From Thermoleophilia bacterium (GTDB lineage Bacteria; Actinomycetota; Thermoleophilia; Miltoncostaeales; Miltoncostaeaceae), in contig JALOLS010000076.1 of the NCBI GenBank assembly GCA_025455865.1, positions 1 to 24,000 of the forward strand: 24,000 nt of DNA, written 5' to 3'. The position numbers were made by a program, and so were the translations under genes. Below the pieces are notes generated by a model, which saw nothing but the letters and a program-made list of their open reading frames with translations, ran no database searches and was not told the origin of the DNA. Positions 3,785-20,136 of this stretch are shown here, in pieces; the first letter of the stretch is position 1, and the number at the start of each line of letters is the position of its first letter.

Positions 3785-4152
3785 GCGGCCTCGTGGCCTG
3801 GGCCCTGGTGGCGCCGGCCGGGGCGGCCGGGGCGGTGCTGCGCCTCGTGGTCGACACCCGGGTCCGCCGGGCCGCGGGCGGCGCGTTCCCGTGGGGGACG
3901 CTGGCGGTGAACGTGAGCGGGTCGCTCCTGCTCGGGCTCCTCACCGGCCTGGGGGTCGCCGGAGGCGGGCTGCTGGTCGCCGGGACGGCCCTGCTCGGCT
4001 CCTACACGACGTTCTCGACCTGGATGCTCGAGACCGGGCGGCTGGCCGAGACCGGCGAGGGGCGCCTGGCCGCGCTGAACGTCGTCGTGCCGATGAGCGC
4101 GGGCCTCGCCGCGGCCGGGCTGGGCTGGGCCCTCGGGGCGGCGCTCGGGTGA
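3781..4152 (+). CDS. crcB: Fluoride ion channel CrcB/FluC, copy 2 (partner of a heterodimeric pair)
   Basis: GTG at 3781 overlaps the crcB1 stop (GTGA). The product is VSGLVAWALVAPAGAAGAVLRL...FPWGTLAVNVSGSLLLGLL...GSYTTFSTWMLE. It appears as the C-terminal part of the long track ORF 2842..4152. Confidence 0.85.
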   Translation: MSGLVAWALVAPAGAAGAVLRLVVDTRVRRAAGGAFPWGTLAVNVSGSLLLGLLTGLGVAGGGLLVAGTALLGSYTTFSTWMLETGRLAETGEGRLAALNVVVPMSAGLAAAGLGWALGAALG

Positions 4153-5114
4153 GCCGCGCGCGCCTGCGCCTGGGGGTGCTCATGGAGGAGGGCGCCGGGG
4201 CGCTCGACCCGCTGCTCGGGCTGCTCGCGGCCGGCGGCGTGCGGTCGGCGGTGGTGCTGCGCGCCGAGCAGGGCTTCTCGCCCGCCGGGCCCATCCGGAC
4301 CGCCGACCTCGAGACCGCCGCGCTCGACCTGCCGCTGCAGGTGGTCGCGGTGGACCGCCCGGAGGTGGTGGGCCCGCTCGTCGGCCCGGCGCGGGCGCTG
4401 GTCCCCCGCGGGCTGGTCACCCGGGAGCCGGCGGTGGCGCTCGGGGCCGGCGACCCGCTCCCCGGCCACGACGACGACGTGCGGCTGAGCCTGCTGGTGC
4501 CCCGGCGGGCCCGTCACCGGGGCGCGCCGGCCGCGGTGGCCGCCATCGACGCCGCGCGGGCGGCCGGCGCCCGGGCCGCGGTGGCCCTGCTCGGCGTCGA
4601 CGGCCTGGACGGGGGACGGCGCACCACCGCGCGGTTCTGGTCGCGCAACGCCTCGCCCCCGGTGTCGGTGGTGGCCGTGGTCCCGGCCGCCGGCGCCCGG
4701 GCCGCGCTCGACGCCCTCGCCGCGGTGGCGGGGGACGTGCTGGTGGAGCGGGTCCGCGCCCTCGGCCCCGCCGACCCGGCGCCCGAGCACCCCGGCCACG
4801 GCCGGCTGACCGCCTACCTCGCGCCGGACCGGGGGCTGCTGGCCGCGCTCCGGGCCGGGGGCGCGGCCGGGGGGACGCTGCTCCGCGCCGTGCGGGGCAG
4901 CGGCCCGGACGGTGCCGTCCGGGCCGACCGCCTGCTCGCCGTGCGGCGGCGGGCCCCGGCGGTCTGCGTGGTCATCGACCGCGCGCCGGCGCTCGCCCGC
5001 GCCCGCCGGGCGGTGGAGTCGCTGGGGGGCGCCGCGGCGGTCACCTGGGAGCCGGTCGAGGTGGTCGAGGCCGGGGCGGCGGCCCCGGTGGCGGCTACGC
5101 GACCGCCTGGATGA
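4149..5114 (+). CDS. DUF190 (UPF0166, PII-like) protein built from three tandem DUF190-like repeats
   Basis: GTG at 4149 overlaps the crcB2 stop (GTGA), giving 321 aa. Three segments of about 100 aa share the DUF190 pattern: RLRLGVLMEE...AVVLRAEQGFSPAG...LPLQVVAVDRPEVV...GLVTREPAV; VRLSLLVPRR...AAVALLGVDGLDGG...PPVSVVAVVPAAGA...VLVERVRAL; GRLTAYLAP...GTLLRAVRGSGPDG...APAVCVVIDRAPAL...AAVTWEPVEVV. Confidence 0.7.
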   Translation: MSRARLRLGVLMEEGAGALDPLLGLLAAGGVRSAVVLRAEQGFSPAGPIRTADLETAALDLPLQVVAVDRPEVVGPLVGPARALVPRGLVTREPAVALGAGDPLPGHDDDVRLSLLVPRRARHRGAPAAVAAIDAARAAGARAAVALLGVDGLDGGRRTTARFWSRNASPPVSVVAVVPAAGARAALDALAAVAGDVLVERVRALGPADPAPEHPGHGRLTAYLAPDRGLLAALRAGGAAGGTLLRAVRGSGPDGAVRADRLLAVRRRAPAVCVVIDRAPALARARRAVESLGGAAAVTWEPVEVVEAGAAAPVAATRPPG

Positions 5115-8640: not shown

Positions 8641-8994
8641 TCAGCCCGCGTCGCGCTCCGCGGCCCGGGCCTCGAGGAAGGCATGGATGGCCTCGCGCCC
8701 CCCGAGCGTGGCGATCTCGGCGAAGCGGGCGGCCAGGTGGGTGCCCCCGCCCTCCCCCGCCTGGGTCCGGACCACCTCGGCGTCGATCGCGTGCCAGCCC
8801 ATCTCGGCGAGCTCGATCTCGATGCGGACCTGGGTCCCGCTCGGGAAGTCGTCCCCGCCCAGCAGCACGCCGCCGGCCGAGAGGTCGAGCGTGGAGGCCT
8901 CGGCGGTCTCCTCGCCGGCCACCACGCGGGCGGGCAGGCTGACCCGGTGGCGGGGGTGCGCCCGGCGCTCGGTGCCCTCCGGCGTCTCGCTCAT
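8641..8994 (-). CDS. PilZ-domain c-di-GMP receptor protein
   Basis: ATG at 8992-8994 overlaps the upstream stop (ATGA). The product is 117 aa. Both halves of the c-di-GMP binding signature are present: RRAHPR (RxxxR) and DLSAGG (DxSxxG). Confidence 0.8.
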   Translation of the reverse strand: MSETPEGTERRAHPRHRVSLPARVVAGEETAEASTLDLSAGGVLLGGDDFPSGTQVRIEIELAEMGWHAIDAEVVRTQAGEGGGTHLAARFAEIATLGGREAIHAFLEARAAERDAG

Positions 8995-11027: not shown

Positions 11028-12197
11028 CTACCCCGCGACCGCCGCCCCCATGACCTCCAGGTCGCTCAGCACGCACCCCGGGTCGGAGGCGTCCAGGTCG
11101 CCGGCCGCCGCCAGCGACCGCGAGCCCAGGCCGCCGCCGCAGTAGTCCAGGAACCGGCACTCGCTGCAGCGCCCGTGCAGGCGCTCCCGCCGGGTCCGCA
11201 GGGCCTCGAGGTCCGCGCCCGGGTCGGTCCAGATCTCCGAGAGCGGCCGGTCGCAGACGTTGCCCATGTACGGCCCGCCCCAGAACTGGTCGGGGCGCAC
11301 GCGGCCCTCCCAGTCCACCGCGGCCAGGCCGCGGCCGGACGCGTTCCCGGCCCCGCCGTTCCAGGAGAGCGCGTCGTGGATGCGCTCGGCCAGGTCGGCG
11401 TCCTCGCGCAGCGCGCGCAGGTAGAGCGCCGCGCCGTCGGAGTAGTTGTCGACGGTCAAGACCTCCACCGGCACGTCGCGCTCGATCAGGTCCTCGGCCC
11501 AGTCGAAGATGCGCTCCAGCGCCGCCCGCTCGGTCTCGCGGTCGAGGGCCACCTCCTGCACCCCGCGGCCGGCCGGGACCAGGTGGTAGAAGCAGGCCCG
11601 GTCGATGCGCTCCTCCTCGACCAGGTCGAAGAGCGCGCCGAGCGACGGGATCGAGGTCGGGGTGAGCGTCACGCGGATCCCCACCCGGACGCCGGCCTCC
11701 TTGAGGAAGCGGATGCCCGCGATGGTGCGCCGGAAGGCCCCCCGGCGGCCGCGGAAGGCGTCGTGGACCGCGCCGATGCCGTCGATGCTCACGCCGACGT
11801 AGCGGACCCCGAGGTCGGCGATCCGCCGGGCCGACTCCTCGCCGATCAGCGTGCCGTTGCTCGAGATGGTCACCGCGAGGCCCCGGTCCCGGGCGTGGCC
11901 CATCAGGTCGAACACGTCGGGCCGGATGAGCGGCTCGCCGCCCGAGAGCAGGAGCGCCGGGCAGCCGAACGCCGCGATGTCCTCGATGAACGCCATGGCC
12001 TGCTCGGTGGTCATCTCCGGGTGGCGATGGGCGTCGGAGTCCGAGTAGCAGTGGCGGCAGGCGAGGTTGCAGCGGCGGGTGCAGTTCCACACCACCACCG
12101 GCCGGCGCTCGGCGCCGGAGCGCAGGCGGCTGCCGCGGCCGTAGCGGAGCGAGTCGGTCTCGGAGGGGCGCCCGAGGAGCGCGGTCACGTTCAGCAC
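11028..12197 (-). CDS. Radical SAM/SPASM protein, NirJ/AhbD-like
   Basis: This is the C-terminal 389 aa of track ORF 11028..13388. The GTG start at 12195-12197 overlaps the upstream gene's stop by 7 nt; GTG at 12186-12188 is an alternative. Motifs: [19 protein letters not shown] (CxxxCxxC), [27 protein letters not shown]...[21 protein letters not shown] cysteines: [15 protein letters not shown]...DPGC. Confidence 0.85.
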
Positions 12198-13276
12198 GGT
12201 TGCTCCGGTCGGAAGATGCAGGTCGGGTCGGCGGCGAGCGGGTCGCCGGTGAGCGCGAAGGCGCGGGCGCGGCTGCCGCCGCACACCCGCCGGAAGCCGC
12301 AGGCGCGGCACTTGCCCCGCAGGGCGTCGGGGTCGCGCAGCGAGCGGAAGAGCTCCGAGTCGCGGTAGAGCGCGACCGGGGACGTCTCGCGCACGTTGCC
12401 GGCGGCGAGGGGAAGGAAGCCGCTCGGGCAGACGTCGCCCGAGTGGGAGATGAACATGAAGCCCTTGGCGTCGTTGGCCAGGCCCACCGGGTCCGGGGTG
12501 GGCGCCCCGCGCTGGGCCATCACCCGCCGGAAGGGGGGCGCCGCGGTGACCTTGATCCGGAAGGGCACGCTCGCGTGCAGGCGCGCCAGGTGCCTGAGCG
12601 CCCGCTCGTGGGCGTGGGGGTCGAGCATGTCGCGCCGGCTCCCGCGCCCGGTCGGGACCAGGAAGAACACGCTCCAGACCGCGGCGTCGACCCCGGCCAC
12701 CAGGTCGGCCATCCGGTCGATGTCGGCCACGTTGCGCCGGGTGATCGTGGTGTTGACCTGCACCGGGAACCCCAGGCCGCGGGCCCGGGTGAGGATGCGC
12801 AGGGTGCGCCGGAACGAGCCCGGGATGCCGCGCAGGCCGTCGTGGGACGCGGCACTGGCCCCGTCCAGCGAGATCGCGACCTGCCCCAGGCCGGCATCCC
12901 GCAGGGTGGCGAGGCGCTCCTCGGTCACCCGGGGCGTCGCGCTCGGGGTGAGCGCCACCCGCAGCCCCCGGGAGCGGGCGCGGCGCACGATGTCCTCCAG
13001 GTCGTCGCGCAGCAGCGGGTCGCCGCCGGTCAGCACCAGGATCGATCCGGCGAACGGCACCAGCGCGTCGACCAGGGCGAGCGACTCGTCGTGGTCGAGC
13101 TGCCCGGGGAGCGGTCGCGGCTGCGCGTCGGCCCGGCAGTGCAGGCAGCGGTAGCCGCAGGCGCGGGTGACCTCCCAGGCGACCACGATGGGCTGGCGGG
13201 CCAGGTCCCAGGCCACCGGGCCGGGCGCGCCCATCGGTCGCGGGTTCGTCGGGACGGGGACGGCCAGGGTCGCCAC
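12191..13276 (-). CDS. Radical SAM/SPASM protein, AhbC/NirJ1-like (resembles the TIGR04053-type family)
   Basis: 361 aa. Motifs: [20 protein letters not shown] (CxxxCxxC, nt about 13136-13159), [19 protein letters not shown]...[37 protein letters not shown]: [19 protein letters not shown]...DPTC. An alternative ATG start lies at 13232-13234. Confidence 0.85.
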
Positions 13277-13310
13277 GGACCGGACGGTCGCACGCCGCGG
13301 CCCTGCTGCT

Positions 13311-13353
13311 CATCCGGGGATCTTCTGGGCCGATATACGGACAAACCCGGATG
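13311..13353. repeat. Inverted repeat CATCCGGG-N27-CCCGGATG in the rSAM/cupredoxin divergent intergenic region
   Basis: Read directly: catccggg at 13311-13318 and cccggatg at 13346-13353. The loop contains the most AT-rich stretch of the region (gatatacggacaaa). Confidence 0.85.
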
Positions 13354-13376
13354 CCCCGGCGGTCTGGCCTGGGTAC

Positions 13377-13406
13377 TTGCCCGCACACCTGATGCGGGCA
13401 TAGGCT
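13377..13406 (+). promoter_or_regulatory. Putative promoter TTGCCC-N18-TAGGCT for the cupredoxin operon, with an embedded 8-bp inverted repeat TGCCCGCA-N7-TGCGGGCA (13378-13400)
   Basis: TTGCCC at 13377-13382, an 18-nt spacer, and TAGGCT at 13401-13406, about 57 nt upstream of the GTG at 13463. The perfect palindrome spans the -35 element and the spacer, which is operator-like. Confidence 0.3.
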
Positions 13407-13462
13407 CAGTCCCGCTGATCGTGCCCCGTCCCACCCGGGACCGATGAAAGGACACCCCCACC

Positions 13463-13807
13463 GTGACCAAGCGCTCGCGCGCCCTCGTGCTCACCGCCGT
13501 CTGCGTCGGCGGCCTCGCCGCCGCCGCCAGCCCGGCGATGGCGCGCACGTACAACATCACCGCCGGCGACCTGTTCTTCCGCGGCGTCCCGAAGACGGTG
13601 CCCGCGGGCACGCACACGTTCGTGATGCGCAACACCGGCCAGGCCCCCCACAACTTCGCGATGGCCGGCAAGCGCTTCGCCCCGGTCCTGAACGGCGGCG
13701 TGGGCCGGATCACCGTCACGCTGAGGAAGGGCAAGAGCTACAACTACCTGTGCACCGTGCCCGGCCACGCGCAGGCCGGCATGAAGGGGACCATCCGCGC
13801 CAGGTAG
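13463..13807 (+). CDS. Secreted cupredoxin (type-1 blue copper protein, plastocyanin/azurin-like)
   Basis: 114 aa. Signal peptide MTKRSRALVLTAVCVGGLAAAASPAMA. Type-1 Cu ligand pattern: H in GQAPHNF, then C-x4-H-x4-M in YLCTVPGHAQAGMKG. Confidence 0.8.
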   Translation: MTKRSRALVLTAVCVGGLAAAASPAMARTYNITAGDLFFRGVPKTVPAGTHTFVMRNTGQAPHNFAMAGKRFAPVLNGGVGRITVTLRKGKSYNYLCTVPGHAQAGMKGTIRAR

Positions 13808-14653: not shown

Positions 14654-15699
14654 TCGCGCCGCTGATCGCCGCGGCGCTCGCCGCGGTGCCCGGACCCGCG
14701 CCGGCCGACCTGACCGCCCGCCAGCTCGCCGGGCAGCGGGTGGTCACGCCCTTCGCCGGGACCACGCCGCCGGGGTCCCTGCTCGCCCGGGTGCGCCGGG
14801 GCGAGATCGGCGGGGTCATCCTGTTCGGCGCCAACGTGCGGAGCGTGGCCCAGACCCGCCGGATGGTCCGCCGCCTGCAGGCCGAGCCCCGGCCCCGCGG
14901 CCTGCCGCCCCTCCTGGTCATGGTCGACCAGGAGGGGGGCCTGGTGAAGCGCCTGCCCGGGCCGCCGACGCGCTCGGCCGCCGCGATGGGCCGCACCGGC
15001 CGGCGCGCGCTCGCCGCCGGGGAGGGCCGGGCCACCGGACGCCTGCTGCGGGCCGCCGGCGCCAACGTGAACCTGGCCCCGGTCCTGGACGTGGCCCGCC
15101 CGGGGACCACCATGGACCGCACCGGCCGGGCCTTCGGCGGCCGACCGGCGCTGGTCACCCGCATGGGCGTGGCGTTCGCCCAGGGGCTCGAGGCGACCGG
15201 GGTCGCGGCCACCGCCAAGCACTTCCCCGGCCTCGGCGCCGCCCCGGTGAACACCGACGACGCCGCGGTGCGGATCGGCGTGTCGCTCGCGACGCTCCGC
15301 CGGGTGGACGAGGCCCCCTTCCGGGCGGCCATCCAGCGGCGCGCGGTGCGGCTGGTGATGCTGAGCAGCGCCGTCTACCCGGCGCTCGACCCGGTCCGGC
15401 CGGCCACCCTCTCACCGCGCATCGCGCGCTCCGAGCTGCGCGGGCGCCTGGGCTTCGGCGGGGTCACGATCACCGACGCCCTCGACACCCCCGCCATCGC
15501 CCCCTACGGGAACACCGCCCGGGTGGCGCGCCGCGCGGCCGGCGCCGGTGCGGACCTGCTGCTGTACGCGGGCACCGAGACGACCGCCGGCCAGGCGGTC
15601 GACGCCCTCGCGCGCGCCTACGGGTCCGGCGCCCTGCCGCGGGCGGACTTCCGCGCCGCGGTGGCCCGGGTGCTCGCGCTGCGCCGGTCGATCGGATAG
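14650..15699 (+). CDS. Glycoside hydrolase family 3 N-terminal-domain protein (NagZ-like beta-N-acetylhexosaminidase)
   Basis: 349 aa. GTG at 14650 overlaps the upstream stop (GTGA). Motifs: GGVILFGANV, VMVDQEGGLVKRL, NVNLAPVLDV, AKHFPGLG. Confidence 0.8.
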   Translation: MIAPLIAAALAAVPGPAPADLTARQLAGQRVVTPFAGTTPPGSLLARVRRGEIGGVILFGANVRSVAQTRRMVRRLQAEPRPRGLPPLLVMVDQEGGLVKRLPGPPTRSAAAMGRTGRRALAAGEGRATGRLLRAAGANVNLAPVLDVARPGTTMDRTGRAFGGRPALVTRMGVAFAQGLEATGVAATAKHFPGLGAAPVNTDDAAVRIGVSLATLRRVDEAPFRAAIQRRAVRLVMLSSAVYPALDPVRPATLSPRIARSELRGRLGFGGVTITDALDTPAIAPYGNTARVARRAAGAGADLLLYAGTETTAGQAVDALARAYGSGALPRADFRAAVARVLALRRSIG

Positions 15700-15710
15700 G
15701 GGAGGACGGG

Positions 15711-16124
15711 ATGGGCGAGACGTTCGCGGTGGAGGTCCGGATCGAGGCCCCGGCGGCGGCGGTGTGGGCGGTCATCGGCGATCCGGAGGCCGTGCCGCGC
15801 TGGTACCCGACCTACGTGCGCAGCACCGTCGCCGGCGATGTGCGCACGCTGGAGCGGGCCGACGGGGTGGTGCTGCAGGAGCGCCTGCTGGAGCGCGACG
15901 ACGCCGGGATGAGCTACGCGTACACCGTCACCGGCGGGCTCCCCCTGCGTGAGCACCGCGCGAGCTTCACCGTGGTCCCCGACGGCGACGGCGCCCGGGT
16001 GGTCTGGCGCACCCACGCCGTCCACCGGGACCCCGGGGTGGACATGGAGGCGCGCCTGGCCGACCGCCAGCGCGAGGCGCTCGCCGGCCTCAAGGCCCTG
16101 GTGGAGGGCTCAGCCCAGGGTTGA
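15711..16124 (+). CDS. SRPBCC (START/polyketide cyclase-dehydrase-like) superfamily protein
   Basis: ATG at 15711 is preceded by GGGGAGGA (15699-15706). The product is 137 aa: MGETFAVEVRIEAPAAAVWAVIGDPEAVPRWYP...YAYTVTGGLPLREHRASFTV. Confidence 0.8.
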   Translation: MGETFAVEVRIEAPAAAVWAVIGDPEAVPRWYPTYVRSTVAGDVRTLERADGVVLQERLLERDDAGMSYAYTVTGGLPLREHRASFTVVPDGDGARVVWRTHAVHRDPGVDMEARLADRQREALAGLKALVEGSAQG

Positions 16125-16331
16125 GCGCAGCCACCGCGCGGCGGCCAGGGTCTCGGCCGCCGTGCGCACGGGGCGGGCCGGGGCCGGGGCCCGCCAGCCC
16201 GGGGCGCGGGTCACCGCGTTCCCGCCGATCAGGATCGCCACGCCGGGCAGGGCGCCGGCGAGCGCGGGCACCTGCGCCTCGATGAGATCGAGGTCGGCGC
16301 CGCTCCCGCACGAGACGCCGACCAGCCGCGG
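16110..16331 (-). other. Out-of-frame continuation of the B12-binding Rossmann domain of the GGDEF protein (frameshifted 3' segment)
   Basis: The tail of track ORF 16110..16544 reads PRLVGVSCGSGADLDLIEAQVPALAGALPGVAILIGGNAV...AAETLAAARWL, which is the expected S-x28-GG remainder of a B12-binding domain. It joins LGADT if one C is added to the C3 run at + strand 16330-16332. Confidence 0.65.
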
Positions 16332-17653
16332 GTGTCGGCGCCGAGCACCAGGGGCCGCCAGCCCGCCGCGGCGAGGATCTCGGCGGTGGCGGCGAGGCCC
16401 ACCCGGTGGGCGTTCCCGGTGGCGCAGGCGATCAGCGCGGGCGGGGCCTGGGCGTCCGGGCGGGGCCGGCGTTCGGCCACCAGCCGCTCGGAGAGGCCGG
16501 TCACCAGGTGCTCCTGGCCCACCGAGATGCGCCCGGCCTCCCATCCGTCGCCGACCTCGGTCATCACCGGGACGAGCAGGCGGTCATAGAGCGCCACCGG
16601 CCCGGCGGCGCCCGCCTCGTCGGCCACCGCCCGGAGCGCCGTCTCGTCGGTGGCGAGCGCGGCGCGCAGGTAGCGGTGCCCGAGCGGCCCGATGCCCCCG
16701 CCGCGCCGGGGCGCCCGAGCCGGCGGGCTGCCGGACTCCGCCGCGCGCACCTGATCGCGGCCCCCCTCCTTGGCGGCGTAGAGCGCGGCGTCGGCCGCCG
16801 CCAGCAGGTCGGCGGCGGACCGGCCGGGCACCAGCGAGGCCACGCCGGCCGAGATCGTGACCCGCCCGGCGGGCGGGACCTCGGCCGCGGCGACCGCCGC
16901 GCGGGCGCGCTCGGCCGCGGCGAAGGCGGCCGCGAGATCGGCCTCGGGCAGGATCCAGGCGAACTCCTCGCCCCCGAAGCGGGCCACCACCTCCCCCACC
17001 CGGGCCCGGGCGGCCAGGATGGCGGCCGCCCCGCGCAGCACCGCGTCGCCGCCCAGGTGGCCGAAGCGGTCGTTGACCGCCTTGAAGCGGTCCAGGTCGA
17101 GCAGGGCCAGCGAGAGCGCCCGCCCGTAGCGGCCGGCGCGGGCCACCTCGGCCTCCAGCCGCTCGTCGAAGGCGCGGCGGTTCGGCAGGCCGGTGAGGGC
17201 ATCGGTGGTGGCCCGCTCGCGGCTCGCGATGGCGGCGACGGCCATGGCCGCGGCCTCGGCCAGGTCCGCCAGGGTCGCCTCGGCGCCCGGCGGCGGGGGC
17301 CCGGGGCCGGCGGCCTGGAGCACCCCCCACGCGCCCGCCTCGCCGCGGATGCCGGCCGCGCCCTGCCAGCGCCCGCCGGCCGGCACCAGGCGCACCCCGC
17401 CGGCCGCCGCGACGGCCTGGGCGGCCGGGCCGAGCGCGGTGGCGCCCACCGCCCGGGCGGCGCCGGCCACGGCCTGGGTCACGGGGCGGCCGCCCTCCAC
17501 CCGCACGAGGCTCGCGCGGTCCGCCCCCAGGCGCTCGGCCGCGGTCTGGGCGACCAGCGCCAGCACCCGGGGCGGGGGGGCGCCCTCGACCACGGCGGTG
17601 GCGATCCGGGCGAGGCCCGCCTGGGCGGGCACGGAGGTGGCGTGCCGGTGCAT
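16229..17653 (-). CDS. GAF-like + GGDEF diguanylate cyclase with a C-terminal CarH-type cobalamin-binding module; the reading frame breaks inside the B12 Rossmann domain
   Basis: 474-aa ORF. GGDEF core: LTGLPNRRAF...DLDRFKAVND...RFGGEEFAWIL (GGEEF at nt 16961-16975). Then VGDGWEAGRISVGQEHLV (W-x9-E-H, nt 16508-16543) and ACATGNAHRVGLAATAEILAAAGWRPLVLGADT. The last 33 aa (RGWSASRAG...) look like out-of-frame noise. Confidence 0.8.
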   Translation of the reverse strand: MHRHATSVPAQAGLARIATAVVEGAPPPRVLALVAQTAAERLGADRASLVRVEGGRPVTQAVAGAARAVGATALGPAAQAVAAAGGVRLVPAGGRWQGAAGIRGEAGAWGVLQAAGPGPPPPGAEATLADLAEAAAMAVAAIASRERATTDALTGLPNRRAFDERLEAEVARAGRYGRALSLALLDLDRFKAVNDRFGHLGGDAVLRGAAAILAARARVGEVVARFGGEEFAWILPEADLAAAFAAAERARAAVAAAEVPPAGRVTISAGVASLVPGRSAADLLAAADAALYAAKEGGRDQVRAAESGSPPARAPRRGGGIGPLGHRYLRAALATDETALRAVADEAGAAGPVALYDRLLVPVMTEVGDGWEAGRISVGQEHLVTGLSERLVAERRPRPDAQAPPALIACATGNAHRVGLAATAEILAAAGWRPLVLGADTRGWSASRAGAAPTSISSRRRCPRSPAPCPAWRS

Positions 17654-17685
17654 CAGGGGCCTTCTCGTCCGCTGGCGGCCCCGGC

Positions 17686-17702
17686 TTGACGTCCAGCGTC
17701 AA
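17686..17702. repeat. Perfect palindrome TTGACG-N5-CGTCAA between the anti-sigma stop and the GGDEF gene start
   Basis: Read directly: ttgacg 17686-17691, tccag, cgtcaa 17697-17702. It lies 33 nt upstream of the start codon at 17653 (minus strand). Confidence 0.9.
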
Positions 17703-17709
17703 TCATCGC

Positions 17710-18405
17710 TCAGGGCAGGGGCAGGACGCGGACGACGCTCACCCGCCCGTCGGTGACCTCCAGCACGATCCCCGGCGCCCGGCACACGCTCGCGGTGCAG
17801 GTCGCGCCGGGCAGCAGGCGCACGACGTCGGCCGCGGGGGTCCCCACGCCGATGCCCCGGGCGGTGCGGATGGCCGGGTCCGCGCTCCTCACCTCGGCCA
17901 CCCGGCCGTCGGCGCCGACCCGCACCCCGACGCCCGCGGGGCGGGCGAGGCCGGCGGCGGGCGCCCCCAGCGTGACCGCGCCGATGCCCCGCCCGGGCTC
18001 GACGGTGGGCGGGCCGGTGGCCGGGAGGGGCGCGGCCTCGGGCGCCGCCGCGGCGGCGGGCGGGGACGCGGCGCGGTCGGCGACCCCGGCCTCCCCGGCG
18101 GGGGGCGGCGCGGCCGGCGGGGCGCCGCCGTCGCCGCCGGTCACCGCGACGACCACCAGCACCGTGGCCGCGGCCACCACGGCGACCGGGGCCAGGGTGA
18201 AGGCCAGGCGCCGGCGCCGGCGCGCGGGGCGGACCGTCTCGCGCACCTGCGCGCGCAGCGACGGCGACGGCGCGACCACGGCGGCATCGGCGCGGATGGC
18301 CTCGGCCATCGCGAGCAGCGCGCGCTCCTCCTCATCCTGCGGCCCGTCGCGGCCGTCGACCAGGTCATCGGTGCGGCGGGGGTCCACGGCGTCATCCTCG
18401 CGCAT
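17710..18405 (-). CDS. Putative anti-sigma factor (single-pass membrane protein) cognate to the upstream ECF sigma
   Basis: 231 aa. It overlaps the sigma gene by 14 nt. It has an acidic N-terminal cytoplasmic part, a TM (LAFTLAPVAVVAAATVLVVVAV), a Pro/Ala-rich linker and a small extracytoplasmic domain. Confidence 0.6.
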   Translation of the reverse strand: MREDDAVDPRRTDDLVDGRDGPQDEEERALLAMAEAIRADAAVVAPSPSLRAQVRETVRPARRRRRLAFTLAPVAVVAAATVLVVVAVTGGDGGAPPAAPPPAGEAGVADRAASPPAAAAAPEAAPLPATGPPTVEPGRGIGAVTLGAPAAGLARPAGVGVRVGADGRVAEVRSADPAIRTARGIGVGTPAADVVRLLPGATCTASVCRAPGIVLEVTDGRVSVVRVLPLP

Positions 18406-18940
18406 CGCCCACCTCCCGGCGGAGCTTGGTGAGCGCCCGGTGCAGCAGGCTGGAGCAGGCGGTCGGGCTGATGTCGAGCACCTGCGCGGCCTCGGCGGTG
18501 TCCAGGCCGAGGATCACGCGCAGGGCCACGGCCTCGCGCTCGGCGTCGCTCAGGCGGGCGAGCGCCGCGCGCATGGGCGCCGAGAGGCCGCCGGGCTCGG
18601 CCGGGCCGGGGTCGTGGAGCGGCGTCTCGCTCGCGTAGCGGGTCTCCCGGGCGCGCCGGCGCCCCTCCCGGCGGAAGTGGTCCAGCGCGCGGCTGCGGGC
18701 CACCTGGCAGAGCCAGACCGCCGGGCTCGCCCGCTCGGGGTCATACCGGGACCAGGTGCGCACCGCGGTCTCGAAGGTCGCCGCCGCCAGGTCCTCCGCG
18801 AGCACCGGGTCGCCGACCATGCCGGTCAGGTAGCGCACGACGGTGCCCAGGTGCTGCTCGGCCACCACGGCCAGGTCGGGCCGGGCGGCGCGGGCGCGAC
18901 CGGGCATGGGGAGCCTGAGAGCCATCTCGGCCCCCATCAT
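18392..18940 (-). CDS. ECF (sigma-70 family group 4) RNA polymerase sigma factor
   Basis: 182 aa. Region 2: VVRYLTGMVGDPVLAEDLAAATFETAVRTWSRYDP...AWLCQVARSRALDHFRR. Region 4 HTH: LSDAEREAVALRVILGLDTAEAAQVLDISPTACSSLLHRALTKLR. The start is ambiguous among ATGs at 18940, 18937, 18925 and 18907. Confidence 0.85.
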   Translation of the reverse strand: MMGAEMALRLPMPGRARAARPDLAVVAEQHLGTVVRYLTGMVGDPVLAEDLAAATFETAVRTWSRYDPERASPAVWLCQVARSRALDHFRREGRRRARETRYASETPLHDPGPAEPGGLSAPMRAALARLSDAEREAVALRVILGLDTAEAAQVLDISPTACSSLLHRALTKLRREVGDARG

Positions 18941-19048
18941 CGTCGTTGGCCTGGACGCGTCGCCATCACCCGGTCATCCGCCGCCGCCGGGACGCCCGTC
19001 ACGTGCCCCGTCGCTCGGCTCGGCCCCCGGCGCGCCGATACGCCCATC

Positions 19049-19633
19049 GTGCGCGTGACGCTGAAGAGCCGGGTCCGCCTGGGGCCCGCCGCCGCCGGGT
19101 CCGGCGACCCCGACGTGGCCGCGGTCCGGGCCTACCTGGAGCGGGTGGTCGACGCCCGGGTGGCCGACGTCATGCACCGCTGCCACCTGCCCGCGCCCCG
19201 GGTGGGCGAGATGGTGCGCCAGGGGGTGCTGCGCCTCTCGGTCGGCCTGCGCCGGTGCGAGGCGTGCCGGGCCCCGGTCGCCACCGGGACGCTCTGCCCC
19301 GCCTGCCGCGCGCGCCTGGCCGCGCCGCTGGTGGGGATCGCGGCGCCCGACGCCGAGCCCGAGACCCCGATGAGTCCCGACGAGGCGGCCGCGCAGCGCG
19401 CGATCGCCGTGGTGCGGGCGCTCCGCCACTCGGGCGTGGGCCGGCCCCGCGCGGGCCGCGCGGTGGACGACCCCGACCTCTCCGAGCAGCCCACCGGGCC
19501 GATCCCGGTCATCGCCGTGCGCGCCGAGCCGCCCGCCGACGACCCCGACGCCCCGCCCGACGTGCTCGCCCGATCGCGCATGTGGTCGCGCCTCCGGCGG
19601 TCCGGCGCGGGCCGGCGCGGGCCGGGGATGTGA
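19049..19633 (+). CDS. Hypothetical protein with a CxxC...CxxC zinc ribbon, divergent from the ECF sigma
   Basis: This is the C-terminal about 194 aa of track ORF 17753..19633; the upstream part is antisense to the sigma and anti-sigma genes. GTG at 19049 or 19055. Sequence: AAVRAYLERVVDARVADVMHRCHLPAPRVGEMVRQGVLRLSVGLRRCEACRAPVATGTLCPACRARL. Very high GC3. Confidence 0.5.
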   Translation: MRVTLKSRVRLGPAAAGSGDPDVAAVRAYLERVVDARVADVMHRCHLPAPRVGEMVRQGVLRLSVGLRRCEACRAPVATGTLCPACRARLAAPLVGIAAPDAEPETPMSPDEAAAQRAIAVVRALRHSGVGRPRAGRAVDDPDLSEQPTGPIPVIAVRAEPPADDPDAPPDVLARSRMWSRLRRSGAGRRGPGM

Positions 19634-20063: not shown

Positions 20064-20136
20064 GCCCTCATCGTCTAGCGGCCTAGGACTCCGCCCTTTC
20101 AAGGCGGCAGCACGGGTTCGAATCCCGTTGAGGGCA
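20064..20136 (+). tRNA. tRNA-Glu (anticodon UUC), 73 nt, CCA not encoded
   Basis: Folded by hand: acceptor GCCCTCA/TGAGGGC, D arm GTCT-AGCGGCCTA-GGAC, anticodon arm CCGCC-CTTTCAA-GGCGG, variable loop CAGC, T arm ACGGG-TTCGAAT-CCCGT, discriminator A. Confidence 0.95.

What the first reader, a model, noticed from the sequence alone, without database searches (positions are those of the whole stretch)
16110..17653. Diguanylate cyclase fused to a CarH-type (Wx9EH) cobalamin photoreceptor module, with the B12 Rossmann fold disrupted by a frameshift and about 13 missing residues
**Seen in the sequence.** One minus-strand gene encodes three parts:
- a GAF-like N-terminus;
- a GGDEF domain with intact GGEEF (aa 227-231), with RVGE in place of an RxxD I-site;
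- VGDGWEAGRISVGQEHLV, an exact W-x9-E-H, followed by ALIACATGNAHRVGLAATAEILAAAGWRPLVLGADT (His-loop NxHxxG).

**Established knowledge.**
- Wx9EH in a helical bundle, preceding a B12 Rossmann domain with a lower-axial His, is the signature of AdoCbl light sensors of the CarH/LitR/AerR type.
- That signature is not found in B12 enzymes.
- Canonical B12 spacing is DxHxxG-x41-SxL-x26-28-GG.

**The break.**
- After LGADT (nt about 16331) the frame decays to RGWSASRAG... and stops at 16229.
- Another frame continues PRLVGVSCGSG...VAILIGGNAV to a stop at 16110.
- The junction is a C3 run (minus strand gacACCCGCgg). One extra C would fuse the frames.
- Even when fused, the HxxG-to-Ser distance is 28 rather than 41. 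This is consistent with loss of the helix that normally follows LGxDxP, for example a deletion of about 38 nt.
- The S-x28-GG spacing downstream is intact.

**Inference.** This is, or was, a B12/light-gated c-di-GMP synthase. I do not know of a characterised example of this architecture. The sensor half is either recently inactivated or mis-assembled.
Basis: partly seen in the sequence, partly recalled or inferred. Interest (0 to 1): 0.8.

Follow-up and report, generated by a model that had tools for sequence, protein, structure and literature searches.

The report
B12 light-sensor diguanylate cyclase, 40-nt deletion
The gene encodes a c-di-GMP synthase fused to a CarH-type vitamin-B12 light-sensor module, a protein design already described and biochemically tested in 2024, and this copy is broken by a 40-base deletion that two near-identical assemblies of the same population lack.

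Summary

**The gene.** Window 16229-17653(-) encodes a GAF-like N-terminus, a GGDEF domain (GGEEF at residues 227-231, RVGE at the I-site position) and a B12-binding_2 helical bundle with W371-x9-E381-H382. The first third of a B12 Rossmann domain (His416) follows. The rest of that domain continues in another frame down to 16110.

**The break.** It is one 40-nt deletion, not a C-run slip. Two assemblies of the same population (99.4-99.9% DNA identity) carry an intact 525-527 aa gene with ...GADTPADALAETARALGARLVGVS... and the canonical G-x41-S spacing. The lost residues are exactly Rossmann helix alpha2 in a confident model of that orthologue. Without reads I cannot say whether the deletion is a real allele or an assembly error.

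**The sensor type.** The cobalamin domain matches light-responsive domains far better than B12 enzymes: CtMerR E 8e-18 and CarH E 2e-12, against methionine synthase at about 1e-3.

**Novelty.** AbDPcob, a cyclase-cobalamin-bilin fusion, is activated more than 10-fold by green light (Nat Commun 2024). Cyclase and GAF fusions to signature-bearing cobalamin domains have also been catalogued (FEBS J 2024). This protein lacks the bilin domain. I call it a new member of a known kind. Function is inferred, not tested.

The parts
16229..17653 (-). Truncated ORF as it stands in this assembly (474 aa): GAF-like, then GGDEF, then helical bundle, then the first third of the B12 Rossmann fold, then 33 out-of-frame residues.
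   Evidence: Identical to P0001 / MCU0308391.1.
17219..17626 (-). N-terminal GAF-like domain (about residues 10-145). It ends in a long helix that leads into the GGDEF domain.
   Evidence: Pfam GAF E 0.069, below the cut-off but covering profile positions 4-133 of 133. BLASTP E 2e-6 to the Pfam-confirmed GAF domain of P0018. The AF2 model shows an alpha/beta fold followed by helix 124-149. Foldseek aligns 317 columns to the GAF-GGDEF protein Dcsbis, 4zmu.
16751..17212 (-). GGDEF diguanylate cyclase domain (residues 148-301). GGEEF lies at 16961-16975. RVGE lies at 16991-17002, at the I-site position.
   Evidence: PF00990 E 7.5e-42. TIGR00254 E 6e-42 on the orthologue. Motifs. Foldseek TM 0.8-0.9 to solved GGDEF domains.
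16484..16678 (-). B12-binding_2 four-helix bundle (residues 326-390). It carries W371-x9-E381-H382 at 16508-16543.
   Evidence: PF02607 E 1.2e-12. Alignment to TtCarH W131/E141/H142 and to CtMerR. The orthologue model has helices 320-331, 335-346, 350-370 and 376-392.
16331..16444 (-). First part of the B12 Rossmann domain (beta1, His loop, alpha1, beta2; residues 404-441). His416 (16406-16408) is the predicted lower axial ligand. The part ends at LGADT.
16329..16331 (-). Junction of the 40-nt deletion. The position is ambiguous by 1 nt because of a single shared C.
   Evidence: DNA alignment of the window against L005 and L006. It is the only indel in 10.2 kb against L006.
16229..16330 (-). 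Out-of-frame tail (RGWSASRAG...AWRS, then stop) created by the deletion.
16110..16329 (-). Displaced remainder of the B12 Rossmann domain (beta3 to the C-terminus: RLVGVSCGSG...ILIGGNAV...stop). It is identical in DNA to the intact alleles.
   Evidence: PF02310 profile positions 52-102, E 1.9e-4. No DNA differences from L005 or L006 downstream of the deletion.
17710..18940 (-). Context only: an ECF sigma factor (18392-18940) and an overlapping 231-aa single-pass membrane protein (17710-18405). Both are codirectional and lie 56 nt upstream of the cyclase gene. Co-transcription is not shown.
   Evidence: Pfam Sigma70_r2 and r4_2. TIGR02937. The pairing is absent next to the homologues P0002 and P0130.

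Best explanation
**What the locus is.** It is the gene for a soluble signalling enzyme of an uncultured Thermoleophilia population. The architecture is a GAF-like domain, a GGDEF diguanylate cyclase and a CarH-type cobalamin-binding domain (four-helix bundle plus Rossmann fold). The protein ends there, with no bilin-binding domain.

**How the intact form probably works (inferred).**
- The cobalamin domain binds adenosylcobalamin. His416 would be the lower axial ligand, and W371/E381/H382 would cap the adenosyl group.
- Green or UV light cleaves the Co-C bond.
- The resulting change in conformation or oligomeric state of the cobalamin domain alters pairing of the GGDEF domains, and so alters c-di-GMP synthesis.
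- This is the behaviour shown experimentally for the cyclase-cobalamin fusion AbDPcob.
- The GAF-like domain may feed in a second signal.

**What is wrong with this copy (shown).**
- A 40-nt deletion removes Rossmann helix alpha2 (13 residues) and shifts the frame.
- The product loses beta3-beta5, including the SxL and GG motifs. It should not hold B12.
- At best it would be a light-blind cyclase.

**What is unresolved.** The deletion is either a real minority allele or an assembly/sequencing artefact. I put it at roughly 55:45 in favour of real.
For: **Domains**
- Pfam assignments.
- The intact orthologue P0122 passes the curated cut-offs of all three families: GGDEF 138 bits, B12-binding 50.9 bits against a cut-off of 32.1, and B12-binding_2 48.1 bits.
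- The window version with the frames fused scores only 24.8 bits for B12-binding.

**The lesion**
- The 40-nt deletion is seen against L005 and L006.
- L006 is 99.92% identical over 10,221 bp with no other gap.

**Photoreceptor-type cobalamin domain**
- PDB sequence search ranks light-responsive domains first: CtMerR 8jbs E 8e-18, CarH 5c8a E 2e-12, SasPcob E 2e-10, AbPcob 8j2y E 2e-8.
- Methyltransferase corrinoid proteins and methionine synthase score only 1e-5 to 7e-3.
- In NCBIfam, among cobalamin-binding families the CarH equivalog is best (E 6e-16), against MtbC at 3e-6.
- All four signature elements of the published light-CBD signature (GxxW, EH, GxxH, GxxxP; PMC11796333) are present in P0122, P0002 and P0130.

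**Cyclase competence**
- GGEEF and the DLDRFKAVNDRFGHLGGD stretch are intact.

**Structure**
- The AF2 model of P0122 has pLDDT 92.2. Helix 441-451 corresponds to the deleted residues 441-453.

**Precedent**
- AbDPcob binds AdoCbl and shows a more than 10-fold light activation of cyclase activity.
Against: - No experiment exists on this protein or its orthologues. B12 binding, photolysis and the direction of regulation (light-on or light-off) are all inferred.
- TtCarH H132, which forms the bis-His light state (my own knowledge of Jost et al. 2015), is Glu here, in the sequence W-E-A-G.
- The cobalamin domain is closer to MerR-type domains than to the AbDPcob domain. The AbDPcob mechanism may therefore not transfer.
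- No B12 riboswitch, cobalamin gene or carotenoid gene lies in the 24-kb window.
- The subfamily is very small, so conservation evidence is thin. Only 4 clusters at 50% identity have the order GGDEF then CBD among the 150 closest representatives, and one of them (P0195) has lost W and EH.
Confidence: 0.7

Rival explanations
1. The frame break is an assembly or sequencing artefact. The organism carries the intact gene of about 527 aa, and nothing is inactivated.
For: - The window comes from a metagenome-assembled genome with 78% GC.
- Two independent assemblies of the same population are intact.
- The 221 nt downstream of the junction are identical to the intact alleles.
- A perfect 7-nt inverted repeat (CGCCGAC / GTCGGCG) brackets the deleted segment. 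It could favour polymerase jumping during library preparation.
Against: - It is the only indel in 10.2 kb against L006, so the assembly is not generally indel-prone.
- No direct repeat longer than 1 nt lies at the breakpoints that could mislead a k-mer assembler.
- The hairpin is no more stable than shuffled sequence (z = +1.2).
- Sister assembly L005 shows other indel differences (6 nt and 171 nt), so indel polymorphism may be real in this population.
Confidence: 0.45
2. The cobalamin domain is a chemical sensor of B12 availability or redox state, or a mere dimerisation scaffold. It would not be a light sensor, and cyclase output would depend on cofactor loading, not photons.
For: - AbDPcob is more active in the apo form than in the AdoCbl-bound dark form, so cofactor loading alone changes activity.
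- Some cyclase-linked cobalamin domains (HaAI-2E) lack the light signature.
- P0195 has lost W and EH.
- The habitat and light exposure of the organism are unknown.
Against: - The full W-x9-EH, GxxH and GxxxP signature is retained in P0122, P0002 and P0130.
- All four signature-bearing proteins tested in PMC11796333 were photoactive.
- The closest solved relatives are all photoreceptors.
Confidence: 0.2
3. The protein belongs to the photocobilin family (AbDPcob type) and senses both green light, through B12, and red light, through biliverdin.
For: - The order cyclase then cobalamin domain is the same as in AbDPcob.
- There is a significant sequence match to AbPcob 8j2y (E 2.4e-8).
Against: - The match covers only residues 36-207 of the 352-residue AbPcob chain.
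- The intact orthologue ends 37 residues after the Rossmann GG motif at 488-489, so there is no globin-like biliverdin domain.
- The cobalamin domain is closer to CtMerR and CarH than to the photocobilins.
Confidence: 0.03

Closest known systems
AbDPcob (HAS09818, Acidimicrobiaceae bacterium), a photocobilin-diguanylate cyclase fusion (Zhang et al., Nat Commun 2024, PMC10979010)
   Same: - A GGDEF cyclase lies N-terminal to a signature-bearing AdoCbl-binding domain, joined by a flexible linker.
- It comes from an actinobacterial MAG.
- The expected mode of action is the same: light-driven change in the cobalamin domain controls cyclase activity.
   Different: - AbDPcob has a C-terminal globin-like biliverdin-binding domain, which is absent here.
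- This protein has a GAF-like N-terminal domain.
- The cobalamin domains are only distantly related (E 2e-8), which suggests an independent fusion.
CarH (Thermus thermophilus, PDB 5C8A/5C8D) and CtMerR (PDB 8JBS), which are MerR-family AdoCbl photoreceptor repressors
   Same: - A four-helix bundle plus Rossmann cobalamin domain.
- W-x9-EH, GxxH and GxxxP are present.
- These are the best sequence matches among solved structures. Among cobalamin-binding families in NCBIfam, CarH is the best match.
   Different: - The output is an enzyme (GGDEF) N-terminal to the sensor, not an N-terminal MerR DNA-binding domain.
- TtCarH H132 is Glu here.
IsPadC and related bacteriophytochrome-GGDEF light-regulated cyclases (PDB 5LLW, 6ET7)
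   Same: - A light-sensor module is coupled through helices to a GGDEF output.
- They are among the top Foldseek matches to the model.
   Different: - The chromophore and sensor fold are unrelated (biliverdin in a PAS-GAF-PHY module).
- The sensor is N-terminal in those proteins.
HaAI-2E (WP_052573826), an AI-2E transporter, cobalamin domain and cyclase fusion (PMC11796333)
   Same: A cobalamin-binding domain is fused to a diguanylate cyclase.
   Different: - HaAI-2E lacks the light signature and has Arg in place of the cobalt-ligating His.
- The domain order is reversed.
GAF-GGDEF-HD-GYP proteins of Thermoleophilia (for example P0016, P0018, P0026)
   Same: - They are the closest relatives of the N-terminal GAF-like plus GGDEF half, at 40-44% identity over 56-65% of the query.
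   Different: Their C-terminal module is an HD-GYP phosphodiesterase. Here that position holds a cobalamin domain.

Membership tests
CarH-type light-responsive cobalamin-binding domain | B12-binding_2 four-helix bundle directly N-terminal to a B12-binding Rossmann domain | tested here: met
   - Intact orthologue P0122: PF02607 48.1 bits and PF02310 50.9 bits, both above the curated cut-offs.
- The AF2 model shows four helices followed by a five-stranded Rossmann fold.
- In the window itself the Rossmann half is split between two frames and scores below the cut-off, at 24.8 bits when fused.
CarH-type light-responsive cobalamin-binding domain | W-x9-E-H in the helical bundle (TtCarH W131, E141, H142; GxxW and EH of the SignatureFinder signature) | tested here: met
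   - GDGW371EAGRISVGQE381H382.
- It aligns column for column with TtCarH and CtMerR.
CarH-type light-responsive cobalamin-binding domain | Lower axial His in a GxxH loop (TtCarH H177) | tested here: met
   GNAH416RVG aligns with TtCarH GERHEIG.
CarH-type light-responsive cobalamin-binding domain | GxxxP loop after beta2, and canonical HxxG-x41-SxL-x26-28-GG spacing | tested here: not met
   - In the window the deletion starts inside the Pro codon. The spacing is 28 residues even if the frames are fused.
- The feature is met in the intact orthologue P0122: GADTP at 436-440, with gaps of 41 and 26.
CarH-type light-responsive cobalamin-binding domain | Binds AdoCbl and undergoes Co-C photolysis | not testable with these tools
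   This needs purified protein, UV-visible spectroscopy and 530-nm illumination.
GGDEF diguanylate cyclase | PF00990 / TIGR00254 domain above the curated cut-off | tested here: met
   - 143 bits against a cut-off of 23.8.
- TIGR00254: 143 bits against a cut-off of 37.4.
GGDEF diguanylate cyclase | Intact GG(D/E)EF active-site loop, and the metal- and GTP-binding D-x-D...N-D stretch | tested here: met
   - GGEEF at 227-231.
- LDLDRFKAVNDRFGHLGGD read directly from the sequence.
- Assignment of residue roles rests on my own knowledge of PleD and WspR.
GGDEF diguanylate cyclase | RxxD inhibitory I-site five residues upstream of GGDEF (a feature of many family members, not all) | tested here: not met
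   - RVGE in the window and P0122.
- RAGE in P0002 and P0130.
Photocobilin (cobalamin domain plus globin-like biliverdin domain) | Globin-like biliverdin-binding domain adjoining the cobalamin domain | tested here: not met
   - The orthologue ends 37 residues after the GG motif.
- The match to AbPcob 8j2y covers only residues 36-207 of 352.
- Pfam finds no further domain.
GAF domain (N-terminus) | Pfam GAF or GAF_2 above the cut-off, or equivalent evidence of homology | tested here: inconclusive
   - PF01590 E 0.069, 14.1 bits against a cut-off of 22.4, though it covers the full profile length.
- BLASTP E 2e-6 to a Pfam-confirmed GAF domain.
- The model has an alpha/beta fold.
- A Foldseek alignment of 317 columns to GAF-GGDEF protein 4zmu.

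The most novel reading that the evidence does not exclude
Two things would both have to hold.
- The intact orthologues form an independently evolved, bilin-free GAF-cyclase-cobalamin photoreceptor: a green-light/AdoCbl-gated c-di-GMP synthase in uncultured Thermoleophilia that also integrates a second signal through the GAF-like domain.
- The window's 40-nt deletion is a real allele segregating in the population. It would convert the enzyme into a light-blind cyclase, which would be a natural loss-of-photoregulation polymorphism.
Probability: 0.3. Interest if true: 0.45.

Novelty: new member of a known kind. Interest (0 to 1): 0.3.

Why it matters
- **New example of a small class.** If the intact orthologue behaves as predicted, it adds a compact, bilin-free, green-light-only diguanylate cyclase to the very short list of B12-based enzyme photoreceptors. 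That could interest optogenetics.
- **Independent fusions.** It would show that cobalamin light sensors were fused to c-di-GMP enzymes more than once in Actinomycetota.
- **The deletion, if real.** It would be a natural experiment in losing photoregulation.
- **Annotation.** The database entry for this protein (474 aa, 'diguanylate cyclase') is truncated. It also serves as the representative of its sequence cluster, hiding the full architecture.

Tried and rejected
- **Homopolymer slip at the C3 run.** Rejected. The DNA alignment shows one 40-nt deletion.
- **Repeat-mediated deletion.** Only 1 nt of microhomology lies at the breakpoints. A 7-nt inverted repeat flanks the deletion, but the hairpin is no more stable than shuffled sequence (z = +1.2).
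- **Independent assemblies carrying either allele.** Two scans of metagenome contigs found nothing, so the collection does not hold this population: a gapped pattern covering both alleles and a 30-mer common to both. The exact 474-aa product is not indexed on any contig.
- **Word-indexed homologue search with the cobalamin module alone.** It returned only 6 hits and missed even P0002. The exhaustive HMMER search was needed.
- **Fusions in GTDB species representatives.**
  - 76 cobalamin-domain relatives were found, none above 42% identity.
  - Where a GGDEF-coding stretch lies 0.5-1 kb away on the same strand (L019, L031, L036, L051, L057, L063), no stop-free frame spans both matches, and in five of the six the matches start in different frames.
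  - These are therefore neighbouring genes, not fusions.
- **Promoter and terminator scan of 15600-19200.** No sites were found, which is uninformative at 78% GC.
- **Rfam scan of the window.** No cobalamin riboswitch; only a tRNA.
- **Foldseek of the full-length model against the PDB.** GGDEF proteins dominate the top 50, so it adds nothing on the cobalamin domain.
- **Photocobilin membership.** Rejected because the biliverdin domain is absent.
Full report
**Observation.** The minus-strand ORF 16229..17653 encodes 474 aa. It is identical to NCBI protein MCU0308391.1, 'MAG: diguanylate cyclase [Thermoleophilia bacterium]', on a 24.9-kb contig.

Pfam finds these domains:
- GGDEF at residues 148-301, E 7.5e-42.
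- B12-binding_2 at residues 326-390, E 1.2e-12.
- A sub-threshold GAF match over residues 29-139, E 0.069.

The frame that runs from the break to the stop at 16110 matches the second half of the B12-binding Rossmann profile (PF02310 positions 52-102, E 1.9e-4).

- GGEEF at 227-231.
- RVGE at 218-221, in the RxxD position.
- W371-x9-E381-H382.
- NAH416RVG.
- A G-to-S spacing of 28 residues instead of 41 when the frames are joined.

**What the break is.** The 90%-identity cluster of this protein has two other members.
- P0122 is 525 aa, from NCBI assembly GCA_025491015.1 (locus L005).
- P0121 is a 257-aa contig-end fragment from JGI metagenome 3300037461 (locus L006).
- Both read ...LGADTPADALAETARALGARLVGVSCGSG...

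The DNA alignment shows that the window lacks one contiguous block of 40 nt, CCGGCCGACGCGCTCGCCGAGACCGCCCGGGCCCTCGGGG. This removes 13 codons plus one base. The lesion is therefore not a slip in the C run.

Comparison with the other two assemblies:
- L006 is syntenic with the window and 99.92% identical over 10,221 bp: eight substitutions and no other gap.
- L005 is 99.4% identical. It has indels of its own: 6 nt in-frame in the GGDEF domain, and 171 nt in-frame in the neighbouring SRPBCC gene between imperfect 25-nt direct repeats.
- The 221 nt downstream of the window's deletion are identical to both intact alleles.

The effect on the domain is clear:
- In P0122 the spacing is the canonical HxxG-x41-SxL-x26-GG, and PF02310 rises to 50.9 bits, above its cut-off of 32.1.
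- The frame-fused window version scores 24.8 bits.
- An AlphaFold2 model of P0122 (mean pLDDT 92.2) places the lost residues 441-453 exactly on Rossmann helix alpha2 (helix 441-451).
- The frameshift then removes beta3-beta5 from the product.

**Real allele or artefact.** I cannot decide this without reads.
- For a real allele: it is the only indel against L006; the breakpoints share only 1 nt, so nothing obvious would mislead an assembler; and the population shows other indel differences.
- For an artefact: the source is a MAG with 78% GC; two sibling assemblies are intact; and a perfect 7-nt inverted repeat brackets the deleted block. The predicted hairpin is no more stable than shuffled sequence, however (z = +1.2).
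- Attempts to find either allele in further assemblies failed.

**What kind of cobalamin domain.** Searching the sequences of solved structures with the intact module ranks experimentally light-responsive domains first:
- CtMerR 8jbs, E 8e-18.
- TtCarH 5c8a, E 2e-12.
- SasPcob 8j2w, E 2e-10.
- AbPcob 8j2y (deposited as 'GGDEF domain-containing protein'), E 2e-8.
- Corrinoid methyltransferase proteins and methionine synthase follow at 1e-5 to 7e-3.

In NCBIfam the cobalamin part is closest to the CarH equivalog (E 6e-16), against MtbC at 3e-6. The published light-CBD signature (GxxW, EH, GxxH, GxxxP, corresponding to TtCarH W131, E141, H142 and H177; PMC11796333) is complete in P0122, P0002 and P0130. 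One difference from TtCarH is that the residue after the Trp (H132 in CarH) is Glu here.

**The cyclase and the N-terminus.**
- The GGDEF domain has an intact GGEEF and the usual DxD...ND stretch, so it should be catalytically competent.
- The I-site is RxxE rather than RxxD, also in P0002 and P0130.
- The N-terminal 145 residues align with the Pfam-confirmed GAF domain of a Thermoleophilia GAF-GGDEF-HD-GYP protein (BLASTP E 2e-6). They model as an alpha/beta fold followed by a long helix.
- Foldseek aligns the N-terminal half with the GAF-GGDEF protein Dcsbis.
- 'GAF-like' is reasonable but remains below Pfam's threshold.

**Distribution.** An exhaustive HMMER search of 1.84 billion cluster representatives with P0121 gave 8,698 hits at E <= 1e-3 but only four below 1e-30.

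Eight of the best 150 representatives contain a GGDEF domain:
- Four have the order X, GGDEF, CBD: the window cluster, P0002, P0130 and P0195. P0195 has lost W and EH.
- Four have the order CBD then GGDEF: P0208, P0225, P0266 and P0269. All four keep the signature.

P0002 (523 aa, 48% identical to the frame-fused window protein over its whole length; 53% over the best local alignment) occurs on four contigs from different samples and is intact. Its N-terminus differs from the window protein, and its neighbours are unrelated. The same is true of P0130's neighbours.

In GTDB species representatives I found 76 cobalamin-domain relatives, none above 42% identity. Where a GGDEF-coding stretch lies close by on the same strand, no stop-free frame spans both matches, and in five of the six loci the two matches start in different frames. 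Those are neighbouring genes, not fusions.

**Genomic context.**
- Upstream and codirectional lie an ECF sigma factor (18392-18940) and an overlapping 231-aa single-pass membrane protein (17710-18405). The membrane protein ends 56 nt before the cyclase start.
- Downstream and convergent is an SRPBCC gene, whose stop overlaps the intact cyclase stop by 15 nt. A GH3 glycosidase and a YkuD transpeptidase follow.
- The window holds no cobalamin riboswitch, no B12 genes and no carotenoid genes.
- The sigma pairing recalls LitR-LitS of Streptomyces (my own knowledge). It is not conserved next to the homologues, so I treat it as context only.

**What is already known.**
- Zhang et al. (Nat Commun 2024, PMC10979010) characterised AbDPcob, a cyclase-CBD-biliverdin-domain protein from an Acidimicrobiaceae MAG. 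It binds AdoCbl and is photoconverted at 530 nm. Its kcat rises more than 10-fold on illumination, and the AdoCbl-bound dark form is less active than the apo form.
- Yu et al. (FEBS J 2024, PMC11796333) defined the light-CBD signature and found it in 1,561 of 128,000 cobalamin-domain sequences. They reported fusions to HTH, DGC, BBD, GAF and MEDS domains.
- The protein here is not a photocobilin. It ends 37 residues after the Rossmann GG motif, and it matches only residues 36-207 of the 352-residue AbPcob chain.
- Its cobalamin domain is closer to the MerR-type domains than to the photocobilin ones, which suggests an independent fusion.

**Mechanism.**
- Shown: the domain architecture, the motif complement, the deletion and its structural target.
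- Inferred: the intact protein binds AdoCbl with His416 below the corrin and W371/E381/H382 over the adenosyl group. Light cleaves the Co-C bond. The resulting change in the cobalamin domain's conformation or oligomeric state alters productive GGDEF dimerisation and so c-di-GMP output. The GAF-like domain may add a second input.
- The sign of regulation is unknown. By analogy with AbDPcob it would be light-on.
- The window's product cannot form the Rossmann fold. It should be B12-blind, and whether it is active, constitutive or unstable is unknown.

**Verdict.** The reading of the sequence was accurate and careful. The gene is a new member of a known, recently characterised kind of photoreceptor enzyme. 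The disruption is private to this assembly. Interest is modest (0.3).

Noticed in passing
L005:7200-7230, corresponding to window about 17110-17130: Sister assembly L005 (GCA_025491015.1) has its own 6-nt in-frame deletion inside the GGDEF domain (RYGRALSL becomes RYGLSL) at a GGGCGGGC repeat.
   Followed up: partly
window 15863-16058 (SRPBCC gene 15711-16124, + strand): L005 lacks 171 nt (57 codons) of the SRPBCC / Polyketide_cyc2 gene. The deletion lies between two imperfect 25-nt direct repeats (20 of 25 identical) at 15863-15887 and 16034-16058. Its product is 80 aa, against 137 aa in the window and L006. This is either a repeat-mediated deletion or an assembly collapse.
   Followed up: partly
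window 17710-18940 (-): An ECF sigma factor and an overlapping 231-aa single-pass membrane protein with no family match (a possible anti-sigma factor) lie directly upstream of the cyclase gene and point the same way. The pairing is not conserved next to the homologues P0002 and P0130.
   Followed up: partly
window 8641-8994 (-): A stand-alone PilZ-domain protein (117 aa, E 6e-13), a potential c-di-GMP receptor, lies about 7 kb from the cyclase gene.
   Followed up: no
window 11028-13807: Two adjacent radical-SAM genes (11028-12197 with a SPASM domain; 12191-13276) sit next to a small cupredoxin gene (13463-13807, + strand). This looks like a peptide-maturation cluster.
   Followed up: no
window 20064-20136 (+): tRNA-Glu (anticodon TTC). 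It is the only Rfam or ARAGORN hit in the window.
   Followed up: yes
window 16110-16124: The stop of the intact cyclase-cobalamin frame (16110) and the stop of the convergent SRPBCC gene (16124) overlap by 15 nt.
   Followed up: no
L019, L031, L036, L057, L063 (CBD match at about 4001-4540, GGDEF match about 0.5 kb downstream); L051 (GGDEF upstream of the CBD match): In several unrelated phyla (Chloroflexota, Bacillota, Planctomycetota, Deltaproteobacteria, Myxococcota) a stand-alone signature-type cobalamin-domain gene lies next to a separate GGDEF gene on the same strand. This may be a split version of the fusion. It is consistent with the reported activation of a cyclase in trans by stand-alone photocobilins.
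   Followed up: partly
protein clusters: The truncated 474-aa product is the representative of its cluster in both the 90% and the 50% identity collections. Searches therefore see a GGDEF plus B12-binding_2 protein without the Rossmann domain.
   Followed up: yes
whole window: The window has 78% G+C. Long spurious ORFs occur in all six frames, so ORF lists alone are unreliable here.
   Followed up: yes
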